Shown: positions 38,750-57,823, counted from the stretch's first letter. The stretch is DNA of 64,000 bases from Alphaproteobacteria bacterium (GCA_021774775.1 JAJFIT010000249.1:4099-68098), one strand, 5' to 3'. Translations and numbers: made by a program. The notes: generated by a model not told the origin, from the sequence alone.

Positions 38750-38791
38750 TTTATTGAGGGAGATTGGCGATTTTATTGAGGGAGGTTGGCG
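38750..38791. repeat. Tandem 20-bp direct repeat abutting the tRNA 3' end
   Basis: TTTATTGAGGGAGATTGGCG (38750-38769) and TTTATTGAGGGAGGTTGGCG (38772-38791) are 19/20 identical. Confidence 0.8.
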
Positions 38792-38831
38792 CACCCGAGA
38801 GGATTCGAACCTCTGGCCTCTGCCTTCGGAG
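38787..38831 (-). repeat. 3' half of tRNA-Arg(CCG): att-site duplication marking the island boundary (not an intact tRNA)
   Basis: The minus strand reads CTCCGAAGGCAGAGGCCAGAGGTTCGAATCCTCTCGGGTGCGCCA: anticodon loop with CCG, T-arm GTTCGAATC and 3' CCA. The D-arm and 5' acceptor strand are absent. Confidence 0.9.
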
Positions 38832-39111
38832 CGCAATTCGAAATCACTCATACAAGCAATTTCAATGACTTACGGTCCGTGGAAGATCATAGAATTTCAT
38901 AGAAGGGCACAATGGTGCATGTGTGTGTAAGGTCTGCGTGTCAGTTGCGTGTTAGTCGTGTCGCAAATCATTCAAAGGCATCAGCCCCACGCCAAAAAAT
39001 CAAAAAGATCCCCACATCACCGGGCGCACACCGTTTATCTAACGTACAACGTCTATCTATATGCATAGGCATTAGCTATAGTCTTATTTAAGTTATAGTC
39101 AGAAAATTTCA

Positions 39112-41061: not shown

Positions 41062-42638
41062 TTATGAGCGATACAAATTGTGACAAATTCTATAATAGAT
41101 ACAGTGATGCAGGGTTCTACTTCCCATCATCAGTTTTAAGTTCATATGCACTGTCCTTACACACGAAACCATTTGTAATACTCTCTGGAATTAGTGGGAC
41201 GGGTAAAACAAAAATTGCTCAATTGTTTCATACGCCAGCAAACCCAAGTAAAAAAATAGAAGCCGCTGAAGAAGCGGGCAGGAATACTTCAAAGTTAATT
41301 ATCAAAGTCCCAGCAATTTTTGATCGGTTTAATTTTCCACAAGAATTATTGCCGGAAATATTATCTCAAGCAGAATTAGATGCCTTTAACGAAAAGGCCG
41401 AAAAATTTCGTCTACGTGGTGATGGAGGAAATTTCTCTGAGACATATGTTTTGGATATTGAAGATGCTCATGGTGGCTTTCAGGTCGCCATTTATGGTCA
41501 AAGGGCTAGTAGTCCACTAATTCGAGGAAGATTTTACAAGAGCAGTCGTGATGCTGAAAGCCCTGAATATGATGCAAGGACGCACTTGAAAAAACATTAT
41601 TCTGTGGGAGACGTTCTGGGGCTAGAAAGCATTGGAGAAAGAAAATTTAAAATTGTTTCTCTTAATGAGGAAACTGTTATTGCCGAAAAACAAGAGCAAG
41701 ACCTTAACACGATTGAACGACAATGCTTTATCCCAGTCCGAAGTGATTGGACAGATAACAGTGAGCTATTTGGTTTTTACAATTTAATCGAACAAAAATA
41801 TCATGTTCCCCAATTTTTGGATTTCTTGCTAACCGCAATCAATAATCCAGAATACCCATTCTTTGTTTTATTAGATGAAATGAATCTATCGAAGGTTGAA
41901 CACTATTTTAGTGATATTTTGAGCTGCTTAGAGAGTAGGGTTGAAACTAGAGATGGGTTACATCAAGAAAAAGTAGTTTTATATAGCGGCTCTAGCCAGC
42001 TTTATACTGATTCAGACGATTATGAACATATTCCCAACGCTATAGAGATACCTACAAACCTTTTTATAACTGGTACCGTTAATATTGATGAGAGCACATA
42101 TATGTTTAGCCCTAAAGTATTGGATAGGGCTAATGTAATACAGTTTAATGAAGTCGATCTTGAATCGTATGGTGGTGGTGAAGTTGAAAAAGGTGATTCC
42201 TTTAAGTTAAAAAAATTCCCCGATTTTATGGATACTAAACTGGCTCTAAAAAAGCACTATGGTGATTTATCAGATGACATTAAAAATCATTTGGTAGCCG
42301 TAAATAATATTCTCAAATCATATCATTTGCATTTTGGTTATCGCACAGCCAATGAAGTCGCATTATACATTCTCTCTGCTATGAATCACATTGATGATGG
42401 TATGGATACACAACTGCAAGCCCTTGATATCCAGTTTATTCAAAAAATATTCCCCAAGTTGAATGGCGGATACGCAGCCTTAGAGGCTCCCCTTAAAGAA
42501 GTGTTGTTGTATTTATCTGTAGAGAAAGATATCGCTAATATTGTTGCAGATAAAACGTCATTTCCTAAAACGATCAATAAACTTCAAAAAATGTACAACA
42601 CACTTTCAGTGAGTGGGTACTCCAGCTTTATAGATTAA
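41058..42638 (+). CDS. McrB-like AAA+ GTPase (NxD type) with an internal inserted domain
   Basis: Walker A GISGTGKT, 'VRSDWTD...L.G', Walker B LLDEMNL..VE.YFS and GTVNIDE...FSPKVLDRAN. About 160 aa are inserted after Walker A. Confidence 0.88.
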   Translation: MIMSDTNCDKFYNRYSDAGFYFPSSVLSSYALSLHTKPFVILSGISGTGKTKIAQLFHTPANPSKKIEAAEEAGRNTSKLIIKVPAIFDRFNFPQELLPEILSQAELDAFNEKAEKFRLRGDGGNFSETYVLDIEDAHGGFQVAIYGQRASSPLIRGRFYKSSRDAESPEYDARTHLKKHYSVGDVLGLESIGERKFKIVSLNEETVIAEKQEQDLNTIERQCFIPVRSDWTDNSELFGFYNLIEQKYHVPQFLDFLLTAINNPEYPFFVLLDEMNLSKVEHYFSDILSCLESRVETRDGLHQEKVVLYSGSSQLYTDSDDYEHIPNAIEIPTNLFITGTVNIDESTYMFSPKVLDRANVIQFNEVDLESYGGGEVEKGDSFKLKKFPDFMDTKLALKKHYGDLSDDIKNHLVAVNNILKSYHLHFGYRTANEVALYILSAMNHIDDGMDTQLQALDIQFIQKIFPKLNGGYAALEAPLKEVLLYLSVEKDIANIVADKTSFPKTINKLQKMYNTLSVSGYSSFID

Positions 42639-42639
42639 A

Positions 42640-44232
42640 ATGAAAATATATAAGGATGATTTAAGGCAAGAATTGATAGGTGGCGCGCTGTTTGAAAACA
42701 AGAAGTATTATCTTGATTTTGAGAGTGCCAGTGAAGAAGAAATTGCGAGTGAAATTAAATCCTCAAAGTTGACACAATTTATAAATTGGCAGAAGGGGAA
42801 TAGGTACGCTACTTTAACTATCATTAATTTTATTGGTAATATTTATTTTTTTTCAGATACTTACGACGTTAAGAGCCAAAAATTTTTAACTGATTTATCT
42901 GGTGCAGAACAATTCCAAAAAATATTGGAAGATATTAGAGAGCTGTCTAAAGACATTATATTCACATATAGCTCTCCCTCTTTTGTTTTACGACAAGTCA
43001 ATTATAAAGATGCTAATCCCTCACTGCTTTTGATGTTTAATTATTTCAAGAGAATACTTTTGTATTGGGGACATAACATAAACTTGCAGTCTGATCTGCA
43101 AAAAGTAATGGCTAACCCAAATTTTCAATATTCAATAAAGTATGAAACGGATCGTATTGAAAAAATAAAAAGAATTGATGGGAAGACACTGCGTGCGATC
43201 CTGAGCGAGAATAAACACTATACTGAAGTAAGCGAAGCCCATGCTGCTCTGATTAATCTGCCATTAACTCAAGCAATATCTCAAGGGTCTTCTATGCATT
43301 ATCTCCCCTCTAAGGCTTTGATGAGAAAAAAATATTTGAGTTACGATACCATAGAAAATCGGTTTATAAAGTTCCTTATTGAATACATTGAGAATATTGC
43401 ATTTAGACTGAATGCGATTAGTGACCTGCCAGCAGGTGTTATTGAAGAAAAAGAACAAATTTTATCTTTCTGTAGATCAATACTTAGAGAACCTTTTTTT
43501 AGGGACATTAGTCCTATGAGATTAATGCCGTTAAATTCAACTATTCTTCAGAGCCGTTCAGGGTATCGGGAAATCTTATTACATTTCACTCGGAGTCGTT
43601 TCGGCATTAAGCATATTTTTGAAGATTTTGAACAAGACTCAATGTCTATTGATTTGAAAAAAATATCGGACCTGTATGAATATTGGGTGTTTTATAAGAT
43701 AGTAAAATCTTTCTTGGGCGACCAAATTATTATCGAAGAGCAAGATGCTGTGATGAAAGATGGTGAAGTTTCTTACGGTGTCTGTTTTAAAAATGAATAC
43801 ATTTCAATTTATTATAACTCAACTGAGTCAAGGTCTAGAAAATCTGCATATAGCGTTGCCTTAAGACCGGACACGACAGTTGTTGTGCGTAAGGATCAAA
43901 AGGTTTTAAAATTTGTTTTTGACGCCAAATACAAAGTTAAAAATAAGGATGGAGAGGATGAGATAGAGCGGCAAATTAAATCAGAAGATTTATACAAAAT
44001 GCATACATATCTTGATGCTATAGAAGATTGCGTATTTGCAGTCGCCGTATACCCTGGCAGCGAATTTAGTTTTTACGAGAGGGATATTAAATCTCCAATT
44101 AGGCGAACCGTGGGATCTATAGATTCATTTGAGGGTGTGGGAGCAATTCCTCTAGTTCCTGAAGATAAAACTCTTAATGATCAATTTGATAATTTCATGA
44201 AAGCTATAAAAGATAAATTTGGATTTATTTGA
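42640..44232 (+). CDS. McrC-like restriction nuclease (DUF2357 + PD-(D/E)XK domain)
   Basis: 'SYDT.ENRF.K', 'LYEYWVF', 'LRPD', 'FDAKYK' and 'DL.KMH.Y.DAI'. Confidence 0.88.
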   Translation: MKIYKDDLRQELIGGALFENKKYYLDFESASEEEIASEIKSSKLTQFINWQKGNRYATLTIINFIGNIYFFSDTYDVKSQKFLTDLSGAEQFQKILEDIRELSKDIIFTYSSPSFVLRQVNYKDANPSLLLMFNYFKRILLYWGHNINLQSDLQKVMANPNFQYSIKYETDRIEKIKRIDGKTLRAILSENKHYTEVSEAHAALINLPLTQAISQGSSMHYLPSKALMRKKYLSYDTIENRFIKFLIEYIENIAFRLNAISDLPAGVIEEKEQILSFCRSILREPFFRDISPMRLMPLNSTILQSRSGYREILLHFTRSRFGIKHIFEDFEQDSMSIDLKKISDLYEYWVFYKIVKSFLGDQIIIEEQDAVMKDGEVSYGVCFKNEYISIYYNSTESRSRKSAYSVALRPDTTVVVRKDQKVLKFVFDAKYKVKNKDGEDEIERQIKSEDLYKMHTYLDAIEDCVFAVAVYPGSEFSFYERDIKSPIRRTVGSIDSFEGVGAIPLVPEDKTLNDQFDNFMKAIKDKFGFI

Positions 44233-44371: not shown

Positions 44372-45949
44372 CTAGAGCTTTGCATATTGCAATCCGACTT
44401 CCTTCCTCTTGTGCAATGGATATGGTTCCATTTTTGACTTCTGCACCATGTCCGACTGCTCATAGAACGGTTTAGTGCGCAACTTCACCGGTCGCTTGTT
44501 GGTGTGGATCAACAACGCTTCGTCGCCACGCATTTGGATAATTTCGCTCTCATTGAGGAGATTTTCTTCGCGGTAGATCGTCTGATCGCCTTGTTCAATC
44601 GGTTTCTGCACTTTACCCAGTCGTCGCTCAAGTGCCTTGGCTGTATCGAGCCCTACGCCCGGCAAATAGATTTGTGTACCGAATCCATCTTGAATGGTCT
44701 CGGCACCCTTATCGCCATATCGGCTTTCCAATTGAGCCCGAGACTGCAGAAACGCCCAGATTGCCACGCGATTCTTGCGTGCCGTCGTCGCATAAATATC
44801 AAAGTCTGGGATAGTTAAATGTCCGAACTCGTCAAGCAACAAATAGACGGGTAGGTTGTTGGGATCGAGACTTGAAAGCAGTGTGTTGAACAATTCCGTG
44901 TAAAAGAGATTCAGGATGAAGCTATAAAAACGTAGGTCTTGCTGACGAGCTTTGAGAAAAAACGCTGTTTTCCGTCGCTGTAAATTGCCAAGATCAAAAC
45001 TGCTTGTTTGCGTAAGGCGGGCGATGTCGGGGTTGCCGACGGCGTCCAATCCGACTGTGGCCGTGCTCAAGAAGGACAAAACCGTCCGTTCGTTGCCTGC
45101 TAAAAACCCTCTATAGTCGCTGTACGTTGAGAGGTCTTCAAGCGTGCTCTCCACAACAAACTGATCGAGCCGTCCGCCGTCCTTCAGGTGTGCGTCAAAG
45201 CTGTTGAGAAGATGTAACACGTTGGCGAGGTTAAGGTGCTCCGGTTCGCCGCGATTGCGTAGACACTGTATCATTATTCTAATAATTTTTTCCGCGCCAG
45301 CCGACCAAAATTGACCGTCATCACTATCAAGCGACGAACGCACAATGAGATGTGCGACCTGTGCGATATCGGTATACCCATTGGCATTTTCTAACGGGTT
45401 ATACGTCTCGCCAACGCTCGTATCCATGAGGTTGAGAACCTTGATGTCGAAACCTTTTTGGGCAAGATACCCACTCGTCTGCGCGTATATCTCTCCCGAG
45501 GTATCGCTGATAACAAGAGAGCAGTCATCTAGTGTGTAGATGTTTGGCATGACGAAAATAGAGGACTTGCCGCTTCCCATACCGCCAACAGCAAGTACAC
45601 TTTGCATAGATACTTTTTCTGAGAGTCGTACACTTTTTCCATCCACAAGAAATCCCTGCGTGCCCGTATCAAAAAATCGCCATTTTTCAAACCACCCCAT
45701 AAAGCGGGCACTCGGCTTTTTCTGAGACAGCACCCATTGTACGGTCGCAACACCTCCACGCCCGACACCAGATAGAAACGACCACATCACGGAAAATATT
45801 GATGCGCCGGTCGCATAGGAAATAAGAAACAGCACCAGCAGGCCAGCCACTACCCAGCCAATACCTTCTTCGCTGTCAATAGCACCAAGCGCAAATAGTA
45901 CCGTAAGTGCGAGTATCATTCCGAGAAACGTCTTTTGCGCTGTGTGCAT
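44372..45949 (-). CDS. VirD4/TraG-type type IV coupling protein
   Basis: N-terminal TM segments, Walker A GGMGSGKS..FV.PN, 'D..GE.Y', 'YNPL', 'FW...A', Walker B LLDEFG and 'Q...QL...YG'. Confidence 0.88.
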   Translation of the reverse strand: MHTAQKTFLGMILALTVLFALGAIDSEEGIGWVVAGLLVLFLISYATGASIFSVMWSFLSGVGRGGVATVQWVLSQKKPSARFMGWFEKWRFFDTGTQGFLVDGKSVRLSEKVSMQSVLAVGGMGSGKSSIFVMPNIYTLDDCSLVISDTSGEIYAQTSGYLAQKGFDIKVLNLMDTSVGETYNPLENANGYTDIAQVAHLIVRSSLDSDDGQFWSAGAEKIIRIMIQCLRNRGEPEHLNLANVLHLLNSFDAHLKDGGRLDQFVVESTLEDLSTYSDYRGFLAGNERTVLSFLSTATVGLDAVGNPDIARLTQTSSFDLGNLQRRKTAFFLKARQQDLRFYSFILNLFYTELFNTLLSSLDPNNLPVYLLLDEFGHLTIPDFDIYATTARKNRVAIWAFLQSRAQLESRYGDKGAETIQDGFGTQIYLPGVGLDTAKALERRLGKVQKPIEQGDQTIYREENLLNESEIIQMRGDEALLIHTNKRPVKLRTKPFYEQSDMVQKSKMEPYPLHKRKEVGLQYAKL

Positions 45950-46845
45950 TATTGACCTCCTTCGATTTCAAAGCTATTGGCTTCTCGCGTTACTTCATGA
46001 AGCAATCGACTTCGGTGGTCATCTGCAAGCGTCTCTCGTCTTTCTGTGAACTGTCCGAAACGAGTCTGCGCATCTGAAAATGCGTCAAATAGCCCCAATG
46101 TTTTGAGCCGATACCGTCGTCCCGTATCGGCGTTTTCTATCCCCCAGGTATTTCCACGCCGATAGAATGAGAGCCCGTCGGTTTCAAGTCGTATCGTTGC
46201 ATCGTCTTGGGAATGTGATTGTTCAAGTGCCCGAAACACAGAGTCCCGTACTTGTTCGGTCTGGGTTGCCGATTGCCCCGTACGCCGTGCCGCTTCGTAA
46301 CCCGATGTAGAGACGCGGGCGCGATCTGTCCGCGCTTCACCTCGTCTATGCAAGCGTTCCCCGATCAGTTCTGGGTATCGCTCCACCTTGTAATCCTCCA
46401 GATCACACACGATGGTACGAAGCTCTGCCTTGCTCAATCGCACGCGTTGCTCACTCTTAACCTCGTTTGCACTCAGCATGAGGTGAATATGCGTATAGTC
46501 GGTGTCACTATGGACACACCCGAATGCAAGTTGGTTCGGTGCCCGCCTCGTAAGATACTGCTCCGCAAGGTCATGCAGGATTTCAGTCTGTTTTTCTTTT
46601 GAGAGGTGGGGCTGATGCTCCAAAACGATAATTTCGTGATACGCATGATTACCGCCCGACCGCATCGGCAAAAAACGGTTATTGTTTTCAAACTCTTTGG
46701 CAATCTGCATCCAGTTGCCACTCTCCGGCAGCGCAAAAAGATTGCGGGTAAGGACGGCATGTTCGTCAAGTCCTTCCCTCACAAAGTAGGCGATCAATTG
46801 GCGGAACGCGGGAGACTTCTTACGGCTCATGGATTTAACTATCAT
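45949..46845 (-). CDS. Relaxase/mobilisation nuclease (MOB_P-like HUH)
   Basis: N-terminal 'QLIAY' (catalytic Tyr), 'YHEII', and HUH motif 'VHSDTDYTHIHLMLSAN'. Confidence 0.85.
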   Translation of the reverse strand: MIVKSMSRKKSPAFRQLIAYFVREGLDEHAVLTRNLFALPESGNWMQIAKEFENNNRFLPMRSGGNHAYHEIIVLEHQPHLSKEKQTEILHDLAEQYLTRRAPNQLAFGCVHSDTDYTHIHLMLSANEVKSEQRVRLSKAELRTIVCDLEDYKVERYPELIGERLHRRGEARTDRARVSTSGYEAARRTGQSATQTEQVRDSVFRALEQSHSQDDATIRLETDGLSFYRRGNTWGIENADTGRRYRLKTLGLFDAFSDAQTRFGQFTERRETLADDHRSRLLHEVTREANSFEIEGGQ

Positions 46846-47248
46846 CTTCCGCCTTCCATGGTCGTGAGACAAACTCCTCTACCGATGCCTCAAGCTGTGC
46901 CAGTTGTTTCATCAACTCCGCCGGGCGCCGTAATCGTCCCCACCCATTTGTCTCGCGTGCGACCTGATTGACATTGTTGCCGATCCTATGGATCGCAATG
47001 TATAGCGTAGCAATCTGTTTCTCGATTGCTTTAGATGGCACAAAACGCTGGTTTCTATAGGCACACGACTGAGCCCAAATCTGCGCAAATACGCTTCTAC
47101 CGTTTTGCTTCGCGAGAGCTGTAATGTCGCGATGTTCCTGTTTGGTCAGCGTGCCGTATATCCGGCGTTTGCCATCCTCTCTAAAACGCTGCCAATACGC
47201 TTTGCGGTACTGGCGTCGTTTTTCTTCGCGCGTGCGATCATCAACCAT
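46835..47248 (-). CDS. mobC: MobC relaxosome accessory protein
   Basis: RHH-like N-terminus and the MobC signature 'RIGNNVNQVAR'. Overlaps the relaxase start. Confidence 0.85.
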   Translation of the reverse strand: MVDDRTREEKRRQYRKAYWQRFREDGKRRIYGTLTKQEHRDITALAKQNGRSVFAQIWAQSCAYRNQRFVPSKAIEKQIATLYIAIHRIGNNVNQVARETNGWGRLRRPAELMKQLAQLEASVEEFVSRPWKAEDDS

Positions 47249-47261
47249 GATGGTCGCCTCG

Positions 47262-47340
47262 TGCGACAGGGGGTTCGGGGGCTCGCCCCCGACAAGAGTG
47301 CATTCTGTGTCCCGCCGCAGACATGCAATCTTGCTCGATA
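47262..47340. other. Candidate oriT
   Basis: Lies immediately upstream of mobC. The minus strand has the inverted repeat CAAGATTGCATGTCTG...CAGAATGCACTCTTG followed by the GC hairpin TCGGGGGCGAGCCCCCGA. Confidence 0.55.
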
Positions 47341-47368
47341 TCTATATATCGACATTTGTTCCCAACGG

Positions 47369-47611
47369 TCATCGTCGTCCTTTCCGTTTTGAACGCCCGA
47401 CAACCAATAAAAGAAGACACAGAACAACAATACCGAGGATGTGAAAAGGAACATATAGACTGGGCACCAGCCCAGCCAACACCGCCAAGCCACCACCAAT
47501 GAGGATGAGCTTGATACCGCCCGCATGCCATTGAATAACAATGGCTAAGCCCCCTAACATGATTAGGATTGTAGCGATTGCTATAAGCGTTTCTGAAAGC
47601 ATAAAGGTCAT
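47369..47611 (-). CDS. Small membrane protein (~80 aa, 3 TM)
   Basis: Almost fully hydrophobic with a basic C-terminal tail. Starts 5 nt after the upstream stop. Confidence 0.6.
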   Translation of the reverse strand: MTFMLSETLIAIATILIMLGGLAIVIQWHAGGIKLILIGGGLAVLAGLVPSLYVPFHILGIVVLCLLLLVVGRSKRKGRR

Positions 47612-47616
47612 GGCAT

Positions 47617-47856
47617 TTACTCTTCCCACATCCCTTTTTTCCGCCCGTCAAACTCAAGCCAAAAGACAGCCAGAAACGTGATCAGGATTGCCATCACAGA
47701 AATACCAAACGACGTGCGTATGGCCAATCCCAGACCAACGGCAAGTGAAAGCATAATCGCGGCGGATGTGAACGAGCGCATAATCAACAAGAGCACACCC
47801 ATGATGGATAGACCGGTCGTGAACAAGAATATCACTGTGAAGTTTATGGAGGTCAT
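47617..47856 (-). CDS. Small membrane protein (79 aa, 2-3 TM)
   Basis: Hydrophobic. ATGA overlap with the upstream vWA-like gene and a GGAGG RBS. Confidence 0.65.
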   Translation of the reverse strand: MTSINFTVIFLFTTGLSIMGVLLLIMRSFTSAAIMLSLAVGLGLAIRTSFGISVMAILITFLAVFWLEFDGRKKGMWEE

Positions 47857-48605
47857 GACAAGCCCTCCACCCGCGCTCCGGAACTTTCAAAGTATCGCTG
47901 CCAGAAGGTTCGGTGCATTGCTACCTGATGGCGGACAGCCTGCTCGTTTCTAAGGTACACCACCCGTACCGCAACGCCCTCAAGAGTGGTGGACACCTGC
48001 CGAGCAAATACGCTCCTATGAAATTGCTCATATTGTTGTGCACCGTCACGGTATTGCGAATATGCCGTGGTGTTTTCAAGCATGTCACTTATGATAATCA
48101 ACCTGCGCCTGCCGACCGACGATGCAAATGTCGGAAGCTCGGCAATTGCTTTGATAGTTTGGAGAATGGGCGACTGTGGCGACTGCGCGGGTTCTTCAAG
48201 CATTGCCGTCGCGCTAGCAAGCGGTAAACCGAAGCCCGCTTCAAAGTCGCGCATAAAAAACTTTTTATTATCATAGAGCCAGTGTGCATCACTGCCATCA
48301 GGCGGACGGCAGAGGGACAGGATTGGCTTAAGCGGTGAAGGAACGGTTTCCTCAATCGGAATAATGGTCAACCGCTCTCCAGTGGCAAGCGAAGCCAGTA
48401 CGCGGTCCATCTCGATTCTAAACCGAACCCTTTGCGCGGGTGTTAGCGGATCAGTGCGATCCACTGCCACCATGGTATGCGCGTCAGCACTGCACACCGC
48501 ACTGGAGTCTGATTCCTTGAGCGTCACACTTAGATATGTGCCGGTCGCCATCCCGACGCCCACGGCACCGATGAGAAAAACCCCCGCGATGTTTTGCCAA
48601 CTCAT
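47853..48605 (-). CDS. Membrane-anchored vWA-like domain protein
   Basis: N-terminal TM segment, 'VAVDRTD' (DxT/S MIDAS-like), 'SPILQTI' and 'LIIISDMLEN'. Confidence 0.6.
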   Translation of the reverse strand: MSWQNIAGVFLIGAVGVGMATGTYLSVTLKESDSSAVCSADAHTMVAVDRTDPLTPAQRVRFRIEMDRVLASLATGERLTIIPIEETVPSPLKPILSLCRPPDGSDAHWLYDNKKFFMRDFEAGFGLPLASATAMLEEPAQSPQSPILQTIKAIAELPTFASSVGRRRLIIISDMLENTTAYSQYRDGAQQYEQFHRSVFARQVSTTLEGVAVRVVYLRNEQAVRHQVAMHRTFWQRYFESSGARVEGLS

Positions 48606-50020
48606 GACGCCCTCCGTTCTATTTCCGGGAAGGTACCGTCATCAGGAACATGCACCCGATCATCAAGAATATGGGCGATGTCCCGTTCGGCAGTACGGTG
48701 GAGCTCTTCAAGCGCATGGAGTGCTTCATTGCGTTTCTCTGCGACGACTACCTTGATCGTTGCCCGGCGTTCATGAAGCGCGTCGGAACTGCACCCAAGA
48801 TCAGTATTGAGCGAAACGCGTTCGGTGAAATATGCGGGAACATCTTGCGTGCGTATCCGCACATTTTCTTCGCGGTATGAAGTGATAAGCTCATTGCACA
48901 GGCGACTGATTTGTACAGCGCGGTCTTCGCAGTATCGGGCACAAAGCATCGCGACGTTAATCAAAGCATTCGCCTTGGCTGCCCGCTTATCAAGTTGTTT
49001 CAGTGCGTCGTCAATTTCGTCTGTTGCGTAGGCAACCACACTTTCCACATCCCGAACCTGACGGCGCTTGAGATTTTCAAGCGCCAGAGCCGTTTTGTGA
49101 TATTGGCGAGTAATGGCACCATATTTTGGATAGGGATCGTCCAAGACCCGATACCCATCAATCACGGTCAAGAATGCGGCAAAAATCCCAAGTCCGAACA
49201 AGAACACGGCGTCGGCGCTCTCTGTTATATTAAAAAGTCCCGCCGACATGTGTTGACCGGCGAGCCAAACAGCATTTTCGAGATCAATGCCAAGCGCGAT
49301 GCGGTAGTGCGCGACATAAAGATTCAAGAAGAGAAGCCACGCACACCCAAACATCAGTCCCGCAACTGCTCGCCGTCGGTACGCAGAATCAATGTGGTGG
49401 AGATGACGACACGCATGGATACCAACCATAAGCGCGGGCCCAATATTTATGACGCTGATCAGAAACGCCTGCCACCAGCCACCAAGCAATCCACGGGCAT
49501 CATGTTCGCCGAGAATGCCTCCACTGAAAATGACTTCAGCACCAAAAAGCACAAACAGTAGCCCCCATCCCAAGAGCGGGAACTCCGGGTATTTTGCGCT
49601 TCGGTGACCAAGCCGATGCGTTGTTTGGAACTGGGTAAGTTCGTTTCGAGCGGAATCAACTGACTGCCGAGACGCACCTCGTTCTGCGTTGCCTTGCGCC
49701 CGATAGTTAGTCAGTTCGTGGTGTGCAACAACATTCGGTTTAGCGATGTCCAGATCAGAAAAGGCGTACTCAGGTTGGTTAAATTTTTCATCACACCGGC
49801 GCAGTTCTCCTTCGATATGCTGGCGCACACCGGTGATCGCATTCTTCGATGCATTGAGTATTTTTTGCTGTGAAGCATTCAGATCGACATCTTCGACTCT
49901 GGGTCTATCGACTTCACCATCAACCCGACCTGACTTGGCGACACTGTTTTTGCTGGGAAGGCGATATCGCCATCCCAGAATTGCATGCTGGAATGCATGC
50001 CAGATATTTCTAAATGACAT
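48602..50020 (-). CDS. Hypothetical membrane protein with four central TM segments flanked by long helical/coiled-coil regions
   Basis: 472 aa with a TM block at about aa 150-290. 'DDPYPKYG' and 'YREEN..R....P.YF' motifs. ATGA overlap with the vWA-like gene. Confidence 0.7.
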   Translation of the reverse strand: MSFRNIWHAFQHAILGWRYRLPSKNSVAKSGRVDGEVDRPRVEDVDLNASQQKILNASKNAITGVRQHIEGELRRCDEKFNQPEYAFSDLDIAKPNVVAHHELTNYRAQGNAERGASRQSVDSARNELTQFQTTHRLGHRSAKYPEFPLLGWGLLFVLFGAEVIFSGGILGEHDARGLLGGWWQAFLISVINIGPALMVGIHACRHLHHIDSAYRRRAVAGLMFGCAWLLFLNLYVAHYRIALGIDLENAVWLAGQHMSAGLFNITESADAVFLFGLGIFAAFLTVIDGYRVLDDPYPKYGAITRQYHKTALALENLKRRQVRDVESVVAYATDEIDDALKQLDKRAAKANALINVAMLCARYCEDRAVQISRLCNELITSYREENVRIRTQDVPAYFTERVSLNTDLGCSSDALHERRATIKVVVAEKRNEALHALEELHRTAERDIAHILDDRVHVPDDGTFPEIERRAS

Positions 50021-50092
50021 TGGATACTCCTTTGTTGAAATAATAGTAAGAGTGCTTTGCCAAAAACCGTTTCAATGCTGTTTGATGATAGG

Positions 50093-50380
50093 TCATGGGC
50101 TGTATTTTCCGATGACGGACAGCACTTCTTCACCTGAAGACAGGTGGAGAGCACGAAGAGCAAGGGCTTCAAGATGCACTACGTCAAACGTTGTGCAGCC
50201 ATCGCGTTTTGGGTTTGTACGCCTACAGGCGTTAATCGCGGCAATGAAATTGCCCTTCAGGAAAAATCGCACTGCGTGATGGAATGCTGTCCAAGCAATA
50301 TTCGGGTCTCTAAAACGCCATTCGTGCGTCTTGCGAACTGCTCGTTGTAGTTCCATGATCGGATTGATTTTGGTCGCCAT
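50093..50380 (-). CDS. Hypothetical protein (~95 aa)
   Basis: ATG preceded by a GGAGG RBS. First gene of the leftward operon. Confidence 0.5.
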   Translation of the reverse strand: MATKINPIMELQRAVRKTHEWRFRDPNIAWTAFHHAVRFFLKGNFIAAINACRRTNPKRDGCTTFDVVHLEALALRALHLSSGEEVLSVIGKYSP

Positions 50381-50466
50381 AACAGCCTCCGCTTCCTGTG
50401 AGGAAAGCGAAGCCACGATGCTCATGGAGCAGATTGACGCTACTTATGGTTGTGATACAATCTGAG

Positions 50467-50555: not shown

Positions 50556-50620
50556 TGACTTTTGATCAAGAGTCAATACTTGCCATATGATGCCATATCA
50601 TGTTGCCATATCATGTTGCC
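50556..50620. promoter_or_regulatory. Leftward promoter region with a 20-bp palindrome and tandem TGCCATATSA repeats
   Basis: TGACTTTTGATCAAGAGTCA palindrome at 50556-50575 and minus-strand TTGACT-17-CATAAA. Repeats TGCCATATGA TGCCATATCA TGT TGCCATATCA TGT TGCC at 50581-50620. Confidence 0.55.
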
Positions 50621-50716: not shown

Positions 50717-51424
50717 TCAACCTTGAGCGATATACTCAAGACACATAAAGGGCGGCGTAGCTGCATTGCCCTGCTCAAAAATCTCATCGATACGCGCAAT
50801 GGCAAGACCAGCTTTTCTTCCAATAGCGGACATAGTGGTGAGCGACCGATGAAAGTCCTCGAAAGATATAGCTGCGCTGGCTCGCTTAGCTGAATCTGGA
50901 TATACGTTCACGGTATAGGAATGACAGTCTATGTTGTAGTCTGCTTGCGAAAGATGCATATCGAAGGTTGAGAATGAACAGTCACGAAAACAGGGATGGG
51001 AATCGACTATCATTAGCGTGCCCCCGTCTGAAAGGCTGTCTTTTGCATCAGCAAGCATTTGGACCGCAAGTTCGTTTGATGACACAGTCACTAGGACTAG
51101 CACGAGAATAATCAGGTCAAATTTCTTGTGAAACTCAGAGCAACTCTGTACTCCCCATTCGAATTCCTCAAAATTAAGATTGGGCGCAGCATGTCGCGCA
51201 TCTGCAGCCATTATTGCGGAATGTGATTTATCAAGCCCTCGCACTTGGCTTGCCAATGTGGCCATGCCTGCAGCAAAATCCCCATTGCCACACCCAATCT
51301 CCAGAATACGGTTTGGCGCTAATGCCGAGACACGTTTATTCAAGAAGGGATACAGGCAATTATACTTAATGTCCCCGTGAATACCGTAGTACGATGGGGG
51401 AATTCGTCGGATTGGACTTCCCAT
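50717..51424 (-). CDS. Class I SAM-dependent methyltransferase (small-molecule type)
   Basis: Motif I ILEIGCGNG, 'GLD.S', 'FDLI', 'L..GG.L', 'HPCF' and 'FHRSL'. No DPPY/NPPY or PC motif. Confidence 0.85.
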   Translation of the reverse strand: MGSPIRRIPPSYYGIHGDIKYNCLYPFLNKRVSALAPNRILEIGCGNGDFAAGMATLASQVRGLDKSHSAIMAADARHAAPNLNFEEFEWGVQSCSEFHKKFDLIILVLVLVTVSSNELAVQMLADAKDSLSDGGTLMIVDSHPCFRDCSFSTFDMHLSQADYNIDCHSYTVNVYPDSAKRASAAISFEDFHRSLTTMSAIGRKAGLAIARIDEIFEQGNAATPPFMCLEYIAQG

Positions 51425-52074
51425 TACTGATTATCACGTCGACGAATAAGTGCGACAACAATGTAAACAACAGGCGTATCTACAGCAGCAATAAATAGTT
51501 TCACCAGATATTGGCCGACCATCATGCCAAAGAGTACGCTCCATGGGAAAACGCCACCAAACCCCAGCGACAAAAAGAGTACAGTATCAATCGCCTGACT
51601 AACTGCTGTGGATAGATTGTTGCGCAACCACAAATGCTTGCCGTTAGTCATCTGTCTAATCTTTGAGAACAACAGCACATCATTAAGTTGGGCTACAAAG
51701 TATGTGATAATCGCCGCTACGACCAACCGTGGTGTTAGACCCAACACTTCTTCATATTTTGCTTCATTGGGCGCGAAGAACTCTGCAGGAGGCAAATAGA
51801 TAGCCAAGGCGACTAAAACACCTGTAATCACGTATGCAATCAATCCGATTTTTACAATTTTCTTTGCTTCGTCTTTACCCCATATTTCACCAACGATGTC
51901 GGTGCAGGGGAAAAGAAATGCATAGACCACTGCGCCAGCAACAAAAGTTAAGCCCGCAACATCAACTACTTTGTATGAAAGCAATAAAGAAATCGGAATA
52001 CATGCAAAAAAGATGGCCTTAATTGCGTCCAAAACATATGAGTGCTCACGTAGACCTTCATATTCAGGCTGCAT
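51424..52074 (-). CDS. Queuosine precursor transporter (YhhQ/QPTR, VUT family)
   Basis: 'F..TDIVGEIWGK..A...V..G', 'R...A.I..Y.VAQL.DV..F', 'HLWLRNNLST.VSQ.IDT.LF' and 'K...A..DTP..Y'. TAATG overlap with the methyltransferase start. Confidence 0.9.
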   Translation of the reverse strand: MQPEYEGLREHSYVLDAIKAIFFACIPISLLLSYKVVDVAGLTFVAGAVVYAFLFPCTDIVGEIWGKDEAKKIVKIGLIAYVITGVLVALAIYLPPAEFFAPNEAKYEEVLGLTPRLVVAAIITYFVAQLNDVLLFSKIRQMTNGKHLWLRNNLSTAVSQAIDTVLFLSLGFGGVFPWSVLFGMMVGQYLVKLFIAAVDTPVVYIVVALIRRRDNQ

Positions 52075-53128
52075 TTCGGCAATCTCCTTCACCAAGTCTC
52101 TGTAAAATACCTTCGCACAAAGCGATTTTTTCGTTGTCTCGTGCAGACGCCTTTAAATCCTCTATGAGCTTGACTACCTCAGCCTTCACTAAGGATTGGC
52201 CCACCTCAGCCAAAGGGATAACCAACCGCCTGCCGTCGTCAGCATCCACGCTCGTATTAAATGAAGGGGCTTGGCCATTTTCGGGTAGAACCACGATTTG
52301 GTTTTCCCCCGGTTGAAACAGGTAGGTCTTAACTTTGAATACCTCTAAGCACCCTTGGCCTGATTGGTGATGCCGCTCGAACCGTTCTATAGAATACTCA
52401 GCATCTTCCAATGCTCGTGTGATAACACGGCGTGCACGACGAGAACTTTCATCTGCCAGATGCCCTTCAACAAACTCTTCATTCGGAAAGAAATAGAGTA
52501 AGCTGATCCCCCTCTTTAGGGCGTCTGCAAGTATACTGTCCACTCGCTCTTTGAGAGCCACATTGACAGTGTTGGTGTCGAACTCAATAAGCGTATTCAT
52601 CGAGAACACTAAACAAACACTGTTGTGTGCAAGTTTACGCAAGAAGCTGTCTAACGCATTAATGGTCGCTGATCTATTGTCCAAATCAATTGTGGTCACC
52701 ATGTCGAAATTAACTTTGGATTGCCCTCCCTCTAGATCGGACACGCCATCGGCTTCAAAGCCGCTTACCAGAAACTCCGCTGCTGCTCTTGCCACATGAG
52801 GATTTGAGGTTTCCAGATGGTAATCTTTCAAGATTTCTTCAATTGGTCGCTTTGTCTCTGACTCGGAATAGGCAAATTTATACAATCTGACCAACGCCCG
52901 TGCCCACGAAAGATATTGTCGACCGTCTGGTTTTTTTCCACCTTGATCGCTCCAAGTATTATCTTCCTCCCGCGTCCAGCGTGCGCTATCAGTCAAGGCA
53001 TAACTGCCATTTAGAACAGCACTGACTACGTTTGGAGATACCCCTGCTCGTGCAGCCAAATCACTTTGGGAACGCCAAAGTAGGTTTTGACATTCAAATA
53101 GTGCCCGCACTAACCTCGTTTGCGCCAT
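52064..53128 (-). CDS. XRE-like HTH protein with an uncharacterised C-terminal domain
   Basis: 'SQSDLAARAGVSPNVVSAVLNG' HTH. Start chosen at MAQTR (GAAGGG upstream). The 3' end overlaps the transporter start. Confidence 0.7.
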   Translation of the reverse strand: MAQTRLVRALFECQNLLWRSQSDLAARAGVSPNVVSAVLNGSYALTDSARWTREEDNTWSDQGGKKPDGRQYLSWARALVRLYKFAYSESETKRPIEEILKDYHLETSNPHVARAAAEFLVSGFEADGVSDLEGGQSKVNFDMVTTIDLDNRSATINALDSFLRKLAHNSVCLVFSMNTLIEFDTNTVNVALKERVDSILADALKRGISLLYFFPNEEFVEGHLADESSRRARRVITRALEDAEYSIERFERHHQSGQGCLEVFKVKTYLFQPGENQIVVLPENGQAPSFNTSVDADDGRRLVIPLAEVGQSLVKAEVVKLIEDLKASARDNEKIALCEGILQRLGEGDCRNAA

Positions 53129-53244
53129 TTTTACCAACCCTTCAATATTTATCCATATTTCAAATGCCATACTATGACTACGAAAGCCAGTAGTCAAATC
53201 ACGTGTTATGGTGTAAATAATGATCAGCAGGAGATAGGTTTGCA

Positions 53245-54444
53245 CTAATTATCTCTGTGCTCCACAGGTACATGCGGAAACGTATTTGCAGATAGCGGCC
53301 TCGAAGGCGAACCATCAATCATCATTTTGAGATAGATGTGATAATTGGCTTGTCCCATTAAATCTTCCTGACCGATATCAGGATAAAACTCACGTGCCAA
53401 TATAGGCGCGTCCTTCGCCCCCACACGAAATGCTATTAGCGTCCCCACATTCCCCAACACCGCCAAACGGATACTTTCAGGCACTTGATGCATATGCTGA
53501 TTAGACAGAACCAAGGCTACTTTCGTTTTACGTAATTCCGATACAGCATCAGCGAAGCTATCGATGGCCATATTTTGAAACTCATCAACAAACAGGTGAA
53601 ATGGCACTCGTTCATGTTCTGGCTGATCTGCCCTACTGAAAGCCGCCAGCGTCAGCATGGTGACAAGCAGACCACCAAGCAGTGAAGAAGCGTCCTCGCC
53701 GATACGTCCTTTGGCCACGTTAATAATCAAAATTCTCCGCTCGTCCATAATCCGCCGAAATGAAATCGGTTTCTTTGGTTCCGTAAGGACACGATAGAGC
53801 ATAGGGTCTGAGAGAAATGCTCCCACTTTGTTCACCACCGGCCCCAGCGCACTTGGCCGGTTAAACCCACCGGCTACAAAGTCTCGTTCCCAGAATAGAC
53901 GCACCTGTGGATTGTCTATTTGTCCGACTACCGTCGCCCGAAACTGTTTATCTAAAAGCAGACGTGGAATGTCTGCCAGCGTTGCATGAGGAATGTCCAA
54001 AAGCGCTAACAGCGCATTGCGGAAAATGTGCTCCATGTTAACGCCCCAGCTGTTGCCACCACCCCACTGTTTTTTAAAGACTTCCAAAATGCCAGAGGCA
54101 ACCAGCGGACGCTTTTGAGGAGAAACCGGGCGGATTGGGTTATAGCCATACGGCTGTTCTGTATCTGGTGCATTGAGGTAGATAAGGTCATTTTGGCGGT
54201 GTGCTGGAATGGAGGCTGCAATACGGTCGGCACTGTCGCCGTGAGGGTCGATATACGCCAGCCCGCGACCAGCTCGCACATCCTGCATTATGAGGTTTTC
54301 TATAAGGGTCGTTTTACCCGCACCTGTCTTCCCAATGCAGTAAACGTGACTGTGCCGGTCGGCTTGTTTGATGCCAAACTTAATACCCTGATTACGGAAG
54401 TTAGTGCGGGCGAAATATGAGACTTCGTTATGTTGTGAAAGCAT
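53245..54444 (-). CDS. Soluble TraD/TrwB/HerA-like P-loop ATPase (T4SS DNA-binding-domain protein)
   Basis: 'DR..H.Y.IGKTGAGKT', 'IDPHGD', 'LFVDEFQN', 'SE.RK', 'A.LGNVGT.I.FRVG..DA'. No TM anchor. Confidence 0.85.
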   Translation of the reverse strand: MLSQHNEVSYFARTNFRNQGIKFGIKQADRHSHVYCIGKTGAGKTTLIENLIMQDVRAGRGLAYIDPHGDSADRIAASIPAHRQNDLIYLNAPDTEQPYGYNPIRPVSPQKRPLVASGILEVFKKQWGGGNSWGVNMEHIFRNALLALLDIPHATLADIPRLLLDKQFRATVVGQIDNPQVRLFWERDFVAGGFNRPSALGPVVNKVGAFLSDPMLYRVLTEPKKPISFRRIMDERRILIINVAKGRIGEDASSLLGGLLVTMLTLAAFSRADQPEHERVPFHLFVDEFQNMAIDSFADAVSELRKTKVALVLSNQHMHQVPESIRLAVLGNVGTLIAFRVGAKDAPILAREFYPDIGQEDLMGQANYHIYLKMMIDGSPSRPLSANTFPHVPVEHRDN

Positions 54445-54582
54445 AACGTCTATTGTCTATGGAGCATTTTGCTTAGCTAGGCTATCGATTTTGACTAAAT
54501 CTTGCTCAGCCATTTCTCGTTTTGATTGGGCGGATTACACGTTATAATGGTCGTAAGCATTAATTAAGAGCGATCTACAATC

Positions 54583-55764
54583 ATGACCTCAAAAACACCT
54601 GACGAAGAGCACCTAGGGAAATATACTCCCAACAAACCTCATAAGGACAATTGGAAAAAGACGGCGGGTGCATACATCACGGTTGTTTTTGAAGAGGATG
54701 ACGAAACGCCATCAGGCGTCGATATCCATACCCAACCATATCTAAAAAATCGGATAAAAGTCCGGCTCTCGTGGGTGAAAGAAAGTGACGAGATCAAAGA
54801 AATCGAGATCAAGAAGTTTAAGCACTATAAAAATGATGGTTGGAAAGAAGATCACGACGAGTGGGGCTATGGAGGCATAAAGTTAAAGCCAGTAACGACC
54901 GGACTAATCTTAGAGTTTTTGCGAACAATTACATCCCTCGACATCAATGAAATTAAACAGCGACGCATGAGTCTGAATGTTGAGGGTGATCTCCCGCTCG
55001 ACGATCAGATGAAACGGCAGTTGCGCACATACCTTTCAAAATCAGGTGGTCGTGAGTTCATCCAAGAATTACTAAGCACCGGATTTTTGCAGGCAGGCGA
55101 CATCGTCAATACGAGCTTTCGCAGAGAGCAACTCGAACAATTTGAGCGCATGCTCAGCGATCCCGACACCTTGAAGGCTTATGCGCGCAGTCAGGGTGTG
55201 TCAGAGACAAAAGAAGAAGGGATTTGGCAACGCTTTTTTGAACAGAACCAGTGGATCTTTGGATACGGTCTGGACTACAGATTTCAAGGATTGCTTCAAT
55301 CTCAGCCGTCAATGTCGTCTGGTGAGGCGGATGGGAGCGACTATGTCATCAGTGATTTTCTTCTCGGTGACAGCCAGTTTATGGTGTTCGTGGAGATCAA
55401 AAAACCAAGCACCCTACTCTTTACTGGGACTCAGAACCGTGCACGGAGTTGGCGTTTGTCTTCTGACCTCTTTGATTCTGTTTCGCAGATATTAGAACAA
55501 AAGGCGGGCGGACAAAGTTTTTATGAAGCAGGTGACAAGTTCAACAACGCTGGCCAAAAAATTGTCCAGCGTCCACATGACTCCAAAGTTCTTCTGATTA
55601 TCGGAAGTTGGGATCAAATAACGCAGGACAATGAGAAAGTTCAGGACACCAAGCGCCGTACGCTTGAGTTGTTCCGGCGAGACTCCCGAAATGTTGAAAT
55701 ACTAACCTATGATGAACTGCTCGACCGAGCTCGCTTCATTGTTGAGCACTCATCCGGACAGTGA
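54583..55764 (+). CDS. sduA: Shedu anti-phage nuclease (DUF4263)
   Basis: 'E..WQ.FFE.N.WIFG', 'DFL', 'VEIKKP.T.L', 'SQIL.QK', 'IIG' and 'ELFRR..RNVEILTYDEL..RA.FIV'. Confidence 0.85.
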   Translation: MTSKTPDEEHLGKYTPNKPHKDNWKKTAGAYITVVFEEDDETPSGVDIHTQPYLKNRIKVRLSWVKESDEIKEIEIKKFKHYKNDGWKEDHDEWGYGGIKLKPVTTGLILEFLRTITSLDINEIKQRRMSLNVEGDLPLDDQMKRQLRTYLSKSGGREFIQELLSTGFLQAGDIVNTSFRREQLEQFERMLSDPDTLKAYARSQGVSETKEEGIWQRFFEQNQWIFGYGLDYRFQGLLQSQPSMSSGEADGSDYVISDFLLGDSQFMVFVEIKKPSTLLFTGTQNRARSWRLSSDLFDSVSQILEQKAGGQSFYEAGDKFNNAGQKIVQRPHDSKVLLIIGSWDQITQDNEKVQDTKRRTLELFRRDSRNVEILTYDELLDRARFIVEHSSGQ

Positions 55765-55780
55765 TACGCAGTGGGGGGTG

Positions 55781-57544
55781 TTATTGTAACCGCAGTAGTT
55801 GCCTGAGCATTTGTAACGATGCCTCTGGACATGGGAATATCTTTTGCCAATCGAGGTTCCGTAATTCATCCCGCCACCGGAGCAATGTTTGATAGTCAGA
55901 GTAAAATGACTCAATTTTCCCATTTTTTCCTTGTTTTATAAGGGTATTTTTGAGTTCGTAATTTTGATTTTGACTTGTTGTCACTAATTCGGGGTTCTGG
56001 GGTCTAATTTCACCATTTCGCCTTTGTTTTCTGCCATTCTTATGGGGTTCGTAATCTCGATTGAGGCGTGGCATCCAATACATCAAATACTGGCTCGCAG
56101 CCGTATACTCATGTACGATTTTACGCCTATCTTGTTTCAAGTTTGCAAAGAGAATTTTTATCAATAGTTGCCGCTCTTCCGTTGTTCCATTCTGATAGAT
56201 GTCTTTCGCCTGAAATGCCAACAAATGCAGTAGCTCGCGTAATTCTCCGTATTCGCCTTCTTGGTCGCTGGTTACTTTTAAGGACGCCGTCAGTGCGTCT
56301 TCCTCATTGGTCAACTCGTTAATTTTCCGATCACAGTATTCTGCCGGAGCATCCTTGTTGATCTTGGCTTCATAATATTTATCCTTCTTGTTTCTGACAG
56401 AAATAAGAAGTTTCTCCAGACGTGGGATATCATCTTTACAATCCTGACTAATTTGAGCCTCCTGCTCTTTCAGCCCGGCTTGTATTTCGGCTAGCACATC
56501 CTTGTTTTTCGGCGCAATGAGATCAAAGGTGGGGAACAACTGCTCTTCAACCCGCTCCTGTCTCATACAGGTCTTATGCGGGCAATGGCGAGAATTACCA
56601 TGGTTATAGCAGTGACCATAATAATGTCCCTTCTTGAGATACCACGTTACCAGCCCTCCACAACCGATACATCGGATTTTGCCCTTGAAGACTGGATTAT
56701 GCTTCGAGAAGTATGGTGTTTTGATTGGACGTTGTAGTTTCCGCTGTACCGTATCAAAGAGCCGTTTACTAATAAGCGGTTCATGTTTGCCGGGGTAGAG
56801 TGTTCCGTTCCAGCGAATCTTGCCGTAGTAAAAAGGATCGGTCAAAAGAACATGGGTTTTGCTGGTTGATATCTTGTTGCCTGCTCTGGTTCTCAGCCCT
56901 TCTTTATAAAGTTTGTCTACCAGTCGGCTAATCGAATAATCTCCGGTGGCATACCGCTCAAACATAAACCGTATGTACTTGGCGACTGGCTTATCAATGA
57001 CATGGATTTTATGTCCTTTCTCACCAGTTGTCTTGTATCCCAGTGGCGGTTTTGTCGGTAGCCAGCCATGCTTAATTTTCGTCTCTTGTCCCGCTTTGAC
57101 TTTTTCGGACAATAGGCGCACGTAAAACTCAGCAACGGCAACTTTCATGCGCCATATGAACCACTCATGAGATTTCGAATTTTTGTGAAGAACGCAACCT
57201 TCCTTGACCAGATGGATTTGATTACGTTCATCGTTTAATAGCCATGCATCGATACCAGTTACGTCAGAAAAATTTCGGGTCAGACGATCTGTCGTTTCTA
57301 CAATGATGACCCTGATTCCGTTTCTACGGACATAGACCATCATTTGATTGAAAATCTTGCGCTTCTGCTTTCCAGCCGCGCTTTCTGCAATGCGGTATCC
57401 TTTCCGAATGTCAATGCCGGTTTTCTCTGCGTAAGCGTCTAATGAGTCATCTTGAGCGTCAAGGGAGTATCCGGTCTCCTCCTGTTCTTTAGACGAAACG
57501 CGAGCGAGTTTAACACCCGGTGTTTTGGGAATATTGGTATCCAT
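55781..57544 (-). CDS. Large serine recombinase (resolvase + recombinase + zinc-ribbon/coiled-coil domains)
   Basis: Catalytic ARVSS.EQ...GYSL.AQ, 'ESA', 'DRLTRN', 'P.GY', 'PFYYG', 'HEPLIS..LF..VQ' and 'C.GCG' zinc ribbon. Confidence 0.93.
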   Translation of the reverse strand: MDTNIPKTPGVKLARVSSKEQEETGYSLDAQDDSLDAYAEKTGIDIRKGYRIAESAAGKQKRKIFNQMMVYVRRNGIRVIIVETTDRLTRNFSDVTGIDAWLLNDERNQIHLVKEGCVLHKNSKSHEWFIWRMKVAVAEFYVRLLSEKVKAGQETKIKHGWLPTKPPLGYKTTGEKGHKIHVIDKPVAKYIRFMFERYATGDYSISRLVDKLYKEGLRTRAGNKISTSKTHVLLTDPFYYGKIRWNGTLYPGKHEPLISKRLFDTVQRKLQRPIKTPYFSKHNPVFKGKIRCIGCGGLVTWYLKKGHYYGHCYNHGNSRHCPHKTCMRQERVEEQLFPTFDLIAPKNKDVLAEIQAGLKEQEAQISQDCKDDIPRLEKLLISVRNKKDKYYEAKINKDAPAEYCDRKINELTNEEDALTASLKVTSDQEGEYGELRELLHLLAFQAKDIYQNGTTEERQLLIKILFANLKQDRRKIVHEYTAASQYLMYWMPRLNRDYEPHKNGRKQRRNGEIRPQNPELVTTSQNQNYELKNTLIKQGKNGKIESFYSDYQTLLRWRDELRNLDWQKIFPCPEASLQMLRQLLRLQ

Positions 57545-57815: not shown

Positions 57816-57823
57816 AGAGGAGA

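What the first reader, a model, noticed from the sequence alone, without database searches (positions are those of the whole stretch)
50717..53128. Island-borne operon: HTH regulator + queuosine-precursor transporter + small-molecule methyltransferase (candidate undescribed system)
Seen: three same-strand genes whose ends overlap (the HTH 3' end overlaps the transporter start, and TAATG couples transporter to methyltransferase). They sit as cargo between mobilisation genes in a defence-rich island, with no tgt, queA/C/D/E/F or dpdA gene in the window. Established: YhhQ/QPTR proteins import preQ0/preQ1; they usually lie near Q-salvage or dpd genes; many phages put 7-deazaguanines in their DNA to escape restriction; methylated 7-deazaguanines occur in phage DNA and in pyrrolopyrimidine natural products. 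Inference: the module may transport and methylate a 7-deazapurine or related base. It could starve or poison phage DNA hypermodification (complementing the neighbouring McrBC-like and Shedu nucleases), detoxify a pyrrolopyrimidine antibiotic, or make a signal read by the HTH protein. I know of no described system with this gene trio.
Basis: partly seen in the sequence, partly recalled or inferred. Interest (0 to 1): 0.8.

Follow-up and report, generated by a model that had tools for sequence, protein, structure and literature searches.

The report
Island-borne deazaguanine transporter-methyltransferase-regulator cassette
A mobile genomic island carries three tightly linked foreign genes (a queuosine-precursor-type transporter, a small-molecule-type methyltransferase and a one-off DNA-binding protein) that likely move and methylate a modified guanine base under their own control, but no second copy of the trio was found and its purpose is untested.

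Summary
Three overlapping minus-strand genes (HTH 354 aa, QPTR/YhhQ 216 aa, class I methyltransferase 235 aa) lie in a 30-kb element bounded by a 50-bp repeat of the tRNA-Arg 3' end. The host has tgt, queA and queC on other contigs, and 0 of 36 same-family genomes carry a QPTR, so this is acquired cargo, not housekeeping salvage. A sigma70-like promoter overlapped by a perfect inverted repeat suggests autorepression. No second copy of the trio was found: the HTH protein has no relative among 1.84 billion representatives, and the best full-length-type relatives of the methyltransferase and transporter are 30-32% and 48% identical. The architecture does recur without homology: 7 of 11 hand-picked plasmid QPTR loci have an HTH/S24 regulator, mostly with QueF, QueC or a methyltransferase, and 5 lie at the head of transfer operons. 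In related elements the same slot holds defence-type genes in 3 of 10 loci. Best reading (0.35): a self-regulated deazaguanine transport-and-methylation cassette serving the element. Rivals: chance cargo (0.25), anti-phage (0.2), detoxification (0.12). Substrate and phenotype are untested.

The parts
52064..53128 (-). XRE-type HTH protein, 354 aa, with an orphan alpha/beta C-terminal region (candidate ligand-binding repressor); a longer 393-aa start at 53245 is possible
   Evidence: weak HTH hits only; no relative; folds low-confidence
51424..52074 (-). QPTR/YhhQ (Vut_1, TIGR00697) transporter, 216 aa, intact
   Evidence: best relative 48%; tree
50717..51424 (-). Class I SAM-dependent methyltransferase, 235 aa, small-molecule type (3g5l/3bkw/ToxA-like group)
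53169..53197 (-). sigma70-like promoter (9 of 12 consensus matches, 17-nt spacer) upstream of the HTH ATG
   Evidence: joint chance with the inverted repeat about 1%
53175..53196 (.). Perfect 7-bp inverted repeat with 8-bp spacer over the -35 box and spacer: candidate operator; single copy in the window
53245..54444 (-). VirD4/TraD-like ATPase of a serine-recombinase element; defines the cargo slot (context)
54583..55764 (+). Shedu SduA (context)
55781..57544 (-). Large serine recombinase (context)
44372..50425 (-). T4CP-relaxase-MobC-ORF250-ORF472-ORF110 mobilisation module; present in G009 without the trio (context)
39112..44232 (+). Dam-like methyltransferase, AAA (McrB-like) and McrC-like nuclease block (context)
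38786..38835 (.). att repeat: 50-bp copy of the tRNA-Arg(CCG) 3' end; the partner copy lies about 4.8 kb beyond the window end

Best explanation
The three genes sit as foreign cargo in an integrated mobile element and likely form one self-repressed operon whose transporter likely carries a 7-deazaguanine-type base (preQ0/preQ1 or a relative) and whose methyltransferase likely N-methylates it, which would make or clear the ligand that the HTH protein is predicted to read. Shown: gene layout, coupling, families, island bounds, absence of QPTR from kin. Inferred: co-transcription, autorepression at the inverted repeat, substrate, direction of transport, ligand sensing. It would work like the regulator-QPTR-tailoring-enzyme cassettes at the head of plasmid transfer operons, serving the element (sensing or signalling) rather than host tRNA, but it was assembled from other lineages of parts.
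For: Overlapping stop/start codons and shared low GC3. Promoter plus overlapping inverted repeat in 0.96% of 5000 shuffles of the 116-nt spacer. Host needs no salvage: tgt, queA, queC present, QueF over cut-off in 29 of 31 genus members, QPTR in 0 of 36 family members. Of 11 plasmid QPTR loci viewed (hand-picked from 39 records), 7 have an HTH/S24 regulator within two genes, 4 a class I methyltransferase within two genes, 4 an adjacent QueF/QueC/T-fold gene, and 5 lie beside traY/trbC; one has regulator, QPTR, QueC and methyltransferase in a row. Here the trio follows a VirD4-like gene. A Phycisphaeraceae genome has a second QPTR coupled to a methyltransferase in a mobile region, besides another QPTR on a different contig. 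The methyltransferase profile's best solved matches are 3g5l, 3bkw and ToxA.
Against: No homologous trio found (tandem-motif scans 0 hits). The plasmid cassettes are not relatives by descent: their transporters fall in another part of the tree and most have an N-terminal extension; their regulators show no BLAST match to this HTH protein and their methyltransferases match only in the SAM-binding core. In unselected samples a methyltransferase adjoins QPTR rarely: 2 of 80 genome loci, 0 of 80 metagenome loci, 0 of 5 viral loci, 2 of 18 same-order loci, about what chance would give (my estimate 2-3%, not computed). Promoter-like sites in the region are at chance level overall (9 against 7.0 +/- 3.0), and the candidate operator has no second copy near transfer genes. 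The ligand-binding role of the C-terminal domain rests on position only.
Confidence: 0.35

Rival explanations
1. Chance cargo: three orphan genes collected in an island hotspot. The transporter at most gives spare queuosine salvage; the methyltransferase acts on an unrelated compound.
For: No second copy of the trio, nor a homologous pair beyond family level; adjacency rate near chance in unselected loci; all three on long branches or without relatives.
Against: Both junctions overlap, composition is shared, all frames are intact with no variants in four runs of one study, a promoter-operator precedes them, and the same architecture recurs on plasmids.
Confidence: 0.25
2. Anti-phage system: the cassette methylates or removes preQ0/preQ1 so that phage DpdA cannot protect its DNA, or feeds it a poisoned base, re-exposing the phage to the island's restriction block and Shedu.
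For: In 10 loci of related VirD4-like/recombinase elements, 5 carry PADLOC-matching genes and 3 have them in the same downstream slot (type I R-M, Gabija, Uma2/PDC-S03) (hand-picked ORFs scanned). Shedu and an R-M-like block share the island. Phage YhhQ proteins are 37-42% identical, about as close as cellular ones. Many phages have DpdA without synthesis genes and may rely on host or imported precursors (PMC6884629, passages).
Against: No PADLOC match for HTH or transporter; the methyltransferase hit (mad2) is a generic SAM-core match also given by a cyclopropane synthase. An importer raises the precursor pool. 7 of 10 slots hold no recognised defence gene directly downstream. No recurrence next to defence genes could be shown.
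Confidence: 0.2
3. Detoxification: the regulator senses a toxic purine-like compound from biofilm neighbours (pyrrolopyrimidine or azapteridine), the transporter moves it and the methyltransferase inactivates it.
For: Repressor + transporter + modifying enzyme is a common resistance layout (own knowledge); ToxA is among the best profile hits; the family may carry other purines (PMC5372724, section heading and passages); the DNA occurs in biofilm metagenomes of one study.
Against: No characterised QPTR is reported as an exporter in the passages read; such resistance modules would be expected to have relatives, and none was found.
Confidence: 0.12
4. Makes a methylated 7-deazaguanine for insertion into host tRNA or DNA.
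For: Host has tgt; methyl-preQ1 exists in phage DNA.
Against: No DpdA in the genome as assembled; the known preQ1 methylase DpdM is a different fold and is proposed to act on DNA.
Confidence: 0.08

Closest known systems
QPTR/YhhQ (COG1738, PF02592, TIGR00697) queuosine-precursor importers
   Same: The transporter passes both family cut-offs over nearly the whole model.
   Different: No Q gene or Rfam riboswitch beside it; foreign to a lineage that makes Q itself; coupled to a methyltransferase and a regulator; long branch, at most 48% identical to anything found.
Plasmid HTH/S24 regulator - QPTR - QueF/QueC/methyltransferase cassettes (Serratia, Vibrio, Legionella, Piscirickettsia, Spartinivicinus plasmids); no paper found
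   Same: Regulator + QPTR + small tailoring enzyme on a mobile element, next to transfer genes.
   Different: Other QPTR clade, other regulator family, methyltransferases alike only in the SAM core: analogous, not homologous.
Bacterial dpd islands and phage DpdA-YhhQ modules
   Same: Accessory YhhQ on mobile DNA (about 9% of dpd islands, PMC12235509 passages); phage YhhQ 37-42% identical.
   Different: No DpdA or dpd genes here.
DpdM, phage dPreQ1 methyltransferase
   Same: Precedent for methylating a 7-deazaguanine.
   Different: DUF3109 with CxxxCxxCC, acts on DNA; this protein is a Rossmann class I enzyme.
ToxA and the 3g5l/3bkw group of small-molecule methyltransferases
   Same: Best profile matches (the profile includes four relatives). 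That ToxA N-methylates a GTP-derived heterocycle is recalled.
   Different: The window protein alone matches no solved enzyme better than E 4.5e-5; no toxoflavin genes nearby.

Membership tests
QPTR/YhhQ | Match to PF02592/TIGR00697 above cut-off | tested here: met
   164 and 175 bits
QPTR/YhhQ | Imports preQ0, preQ1 or queuine | not testable with these tools
   needs a complementation assay
Housekeeping Q salvage locus | Vertical presence in kin, or linkage to Q genes or a preQ1 riboswitch | tested here: not met
   0 of 36 family genomes; no Rfam hit at gathering score; Q genes on other contigs
Class I SAM methyltransferase | Motif I E/DxGxGxG, acidic residue after strand 2, Pfam match | tested here: met
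   (E42, G44, G46, G48, D65, D103 invariant)
DpdM | DUF3109 with CxxxCxxCC | tested here: not met
   sequence and families against the description
Dpd DNA-modification system | DpdA present | tested here: not met
   caveat: genome 83.6% complete
Catalogued anti-phage system (PADLOC 2.0) | Specific profile matches for the components | tested here: not met
   none for HTH and QPTR, generic SAM-core hit for the methyltransferase
Anti-phage system (any) | Located in a defence-cargo slot | tested here: inconclusive
   3 of 10 related loci have defence-type genes in that slot
Plasmid regulator-QPTR-enzyme cassette | Architecture: HTH + QPTR + small enzyme beside transfer genes | tested here: met
   against 37-40, 138-140
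Plasmid regulator-QPTR-enzyme cassette | Common descent of parts (QPTR clade, S24-type regulator) | tested here: not met
TrmB-like (HTH + PLD-like effector domain) regulator | PLD-like C-terminal fold | tested here: inconclusive
   top rows MITD1 and TrmBL2 at E about 0.1 with a pLDDT-47 model, not repeated with the domain model (pLDDT 39)
tRNA-targeting integrative mobilisable element | att repeats, integrase, relaxase, coupling protein | tested here: met
   (the 371-aa ORF beside the tRNA read as a tyrosine integrase by eye, not scanned)

The most novel reading that the evidence does not exclude
Mobile elements have repeatedly and independently joined an HTH regulator, a QPTR transporter and a deazaguanine-tailoring enzyme (QueF, QueC or a methyltransferase) to run a nucleobase-derived signal, or anti-phage decoy, from the queuosine precursor pool; this trio is a methylating version with a new ligand-binding domain and a first class I deazaguanine methyltransferase.
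Probability: 0.2. Interest if true: 0.85.

Novelty: new variant of a known kind. Interest (0 to 1): 0.45.

Why it matters
In the passages I read, QPTR proteins appear only as feeders of tRNA or DNA modification. A QPTR coupled to a methyltransferase and a regulator, in a host that makes queuosine itself and has no DpdA, points to another use of 7-deazaguanines: as signals or decoys for mobile elements. The three genes are small and each step has a standard assay. Its weight is limited by being a single instance; the commoner plasmid cassettes found along the way may be the better entry point.

Tried and rejected
Homologue searches: the HTH protein found only itself (C-terminal domain in 0 of 400 class genomes); methyltransferase 4 weak relatives, 1 plasmid hit with no QPTR annotated nearby, 19 viral loci matching the SAM core only; no longer or fused QPTR form (weak evidence). 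Tandem-motif scans (QPTR WLRNN to methyltransferase motif I, 301-361 nt): 0 in viral contigs for both leucine codon classes, 0 in metagenomes for one class; the pattern recovered both known cases among 110 loci but is narrow. A by-eye likeness between the HTH protein and the 377-aa ORF upstream of the Phycisphaeraceae QPTR was rejected. Origin in Patescibacteria cassettes: 49 of 401 genomes have QPTR over cut-off; in 57 loci two motif scans gave 4 hits, none a methyltransferase coupled to QPTR; no full profile scan of these loci was done. In 28 further viral QPTR loci 2 motif hits: one false, one not inspected. Structure: two single-sequence models of low confidence, fold searches inconclusive. 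No Atlas result was obtained. No RNA holder listed. No joints showing excision in four contig sets. The tree is the quick one, without bootstrap, and lacks the phage YhhQ proteins and loci fetched later. Literature searches found no description of this trio or of the plasmid cassettes; the library lacks most subscription papers, and I opened no supplements, which may bear on this (for example the QPTR network tables of PMC11570991 and PMC11130926).

Full report
Observation. The transporter is a clear QPTR/YhhQ. The third gene is a class I SAM methyltransferase with intact motif I. The first has a weak XRE-type helix-turn-helix at residues 20-46, below the Pfam cut-off, followed by about 300 residues with no credible family match. 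Upstream of the ATG at 53128 a sigma70-like promoter is overlapped by a perfect 7-bp inverted repeat; both together arise in 0.96% of 5000 shuffles of that spacer, though each alone is common (17% and 10%) and I looked at this spot after noticing it. This favours the 354-aa start and autorepression (inference). The 393-aa start coupled to the upstream ATPase remains possible.

Context. A tRNA-Arg(CCG) lies 4.8 kb beyond the window; 50 bp of its 3' end are repeated at 38786-38835, and an integrase-like ORF abuts the tRNA (read by eye). A same-genus genome (G022) follows the host sequence up to about 350 bases before the repeat and then has other genes. The element is thus about 30 kb. It holds a methyltransferase-AAA-nuclease block, a T4CP-relaxase-MobC module, the trio, a VirD4-like ATPase, Shedu, a serine recombinase and ArdC. 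G009 has the relaxase module without the trio, so the trio more likely came with the VirD4-like/recombinase unit (inference). That ATPase has relatives in 10 of 400 class genomes. I fetched 10 of the 11 places; 5 carry PADLOC-matching genes among the ORFs I chose to scan (type I R-M and Sir2-HerA; Gabija and PDC-S31; CBASS twice; Uma2), 3 of them directly downstream of the ATPase, where the trio lies.

Host need. The genome has tgt, queA and queC. QueF was not found in it (83.6% complete) but passes the cut-off in 29 of 31 genus members. QPTR is in 0 of 36 same-family genomes and 15 of 24 genomes of other families of the order. In a quick tree of 123 QPTRs the window protein sits on a long branch with two metagenomic proteins of unknown context (support 95), away from the order's own QPTRs, which group with Sphingomonas proteins (from this I infer an alphaproteobacterial host). 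No DpdA was found.

Conservation. The HTH protein matched only itself among 1.84 billion representatives. The methyltransferase had 4 relatives, 30-40% identical, over 40-85% of its length. The best QPTR relative is 48% identical. Among 191 other QPTR loci held, 7 have a methyltransferase within 150 nt; 3 of these are plasmid loci I had picked, and 4 of the 7 were in the profile used to search. In the unselected sets the counts are 2 of 80, 0 of 80, 0 of 5 and 2 of 18. Only one of these (L008, Phycisphaeraceae) has the same coupled order; it is a second QPTR in its genome, lies among integrase- and transposase-like ORFs (read by eye), is not sister to the window protein, and its upstream ORF is not detectably related to the HTH protein. 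Motif scans for the tandem arrangement gave nothing. So no second copy of the trio was found.

Analogues. QPTR relatives occur on 39 plasmid records. I viewed 11, chosen as proteobacterial. One had no annotation in the stretch and two looked chromosomal. Seven have an HTH or S24 regulator within two genes; the partner enzyme is QueF, QueC plus a methyltransferase, a short QueF-like or T-fold protein, a methyltransferase on the opposite strand or none; five lie at the head of a tra or trb operon. An eighth has folE, an SDR, QPTR and an O-methyltransferase. Earlier AI notes of this scan report similar cassettes; I treat them as leads. These cassettes share the architecture but not the ancestry of the trio. 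Interchange of QueF, QueC and methyltransferases behind a QPTR is the main ground for thinking that the methyltransferase here acts on a deazaguanine; it is an analogy.

Chemistry. A five-sequence profile matches 3g5l, 3bkw and ToxA best; the window protein alone gives only weak generic hits. The known preQ1 methylase DpdM is a different, metal-binding fold proposed to act on DNA (10.1101/2023.04.13.536721, passages). QPTR substrates differ between members: preQ0/preQ1 in E. coli, queuine in Chlamydia (PMC11130926 and PMC11570991, passages), and the family is described as heterogeneous (PMC5372724, passages). Phage YhhQ proteins are 37-42% identical to this one, no closer than cellular ones; phages with YhhQ are noted in PMC6884629 (passages). 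The fold of the HTH protein's C-terminal part is unresolved: a weak PLD/TrmB-like hint from one poor model was not repeated with a second.

Verdict. A real, intact, probably autoregulated three-gene cassette on a well-bounded integrative element. Most likely it transports and methylates a deazaguanine-type base for the element's own sensing or signalling (0.35); chance cargo (0.25), anti-phage action (0.2), detoxification (0.12) and base modification (0.08) remain open. I found no description in the eight literature searches listed under Tried and rejected. Interest 0.45: odd and easy to test, but a single instance with no functional evidence.

Noticed in passing
L106-L109, L331-L333 (plasmids of Vibrio, Legionella, Spartinivicinus, Serratia, Piscirickettsia): Recurrent HTH/S24 regulator - QPTR - QueF/QueC/T-fold/methyltransferase cassette, often at the head of tra/trb operons; no paper found. 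Possibly of more interest than the present locus.
   Followed up: partly
window 53245-59986; L215-L224: A family of alphaproteobacterial elements with a VirD4-like ATPase and a large serine recombinase carries varied defence cargo (type I R-M, Sir2-HerA, Gabija, CBASS, Shedu); unannotated ORFs in the same slots (L217:9430-10641, L218, L222) are candidate defence genes.
   Followed up: partly
window 47853-50425; L225:8308-10855: Three genes without a family (110, 472 and 250 aa) precede mobC-relaxase-T4CP and are conserved in order in G009; the 472-aa membrane protein has relatives in 3 of 300 order genomes.
   Followed up: partly
window 50556-50615: A 12-bp-arm palindrome and three 13-nt direct repeats between the methyltransferase and ORF110: possible operator, or boundary of the nested element.
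   Followed up: no
window 39112-44232: A two-domain adenine methyltransferase precedes the McrB/McrC-like pair, so the block looks like a self-protecting R-M system (LlaJI-like; label recalled) rather than modification-dependent McrBC; GC 34-38%.
   Followed up: no
L259:2249-3656, L267:2860-4240, L268:2917-4277: In three Patescibacteria loci QPTR overlaps a downstream gene that looks like a CofE-type gamma-glutamyl ligase (label by eye, not scanned).
   Followed up: no
L008:3912-7307: Phycisphaeraceae mobile region with two ORFs without a family (257 and 377 aa), a QPTR and a coupled ToxA-like methyltransferase.
   Followed up: partly
L103:2800-6533: Methylobacterium plasmid operon: hypothetical, folE, SDR, QPTR, O-methyltransferase; suggests a pterin or deazapurine product.
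   Followed up: no
window 61120-63160: Three minus-strand genes with lipoprotein-like N-termini (one with TPR repeats) inside the island.
   Followed up: no
L225:3783-7973: A 1396-aa protein with an AAA_16 domain is the cargo beside the related relaxase module in G009; no PADLOC match.
   Followed up: no
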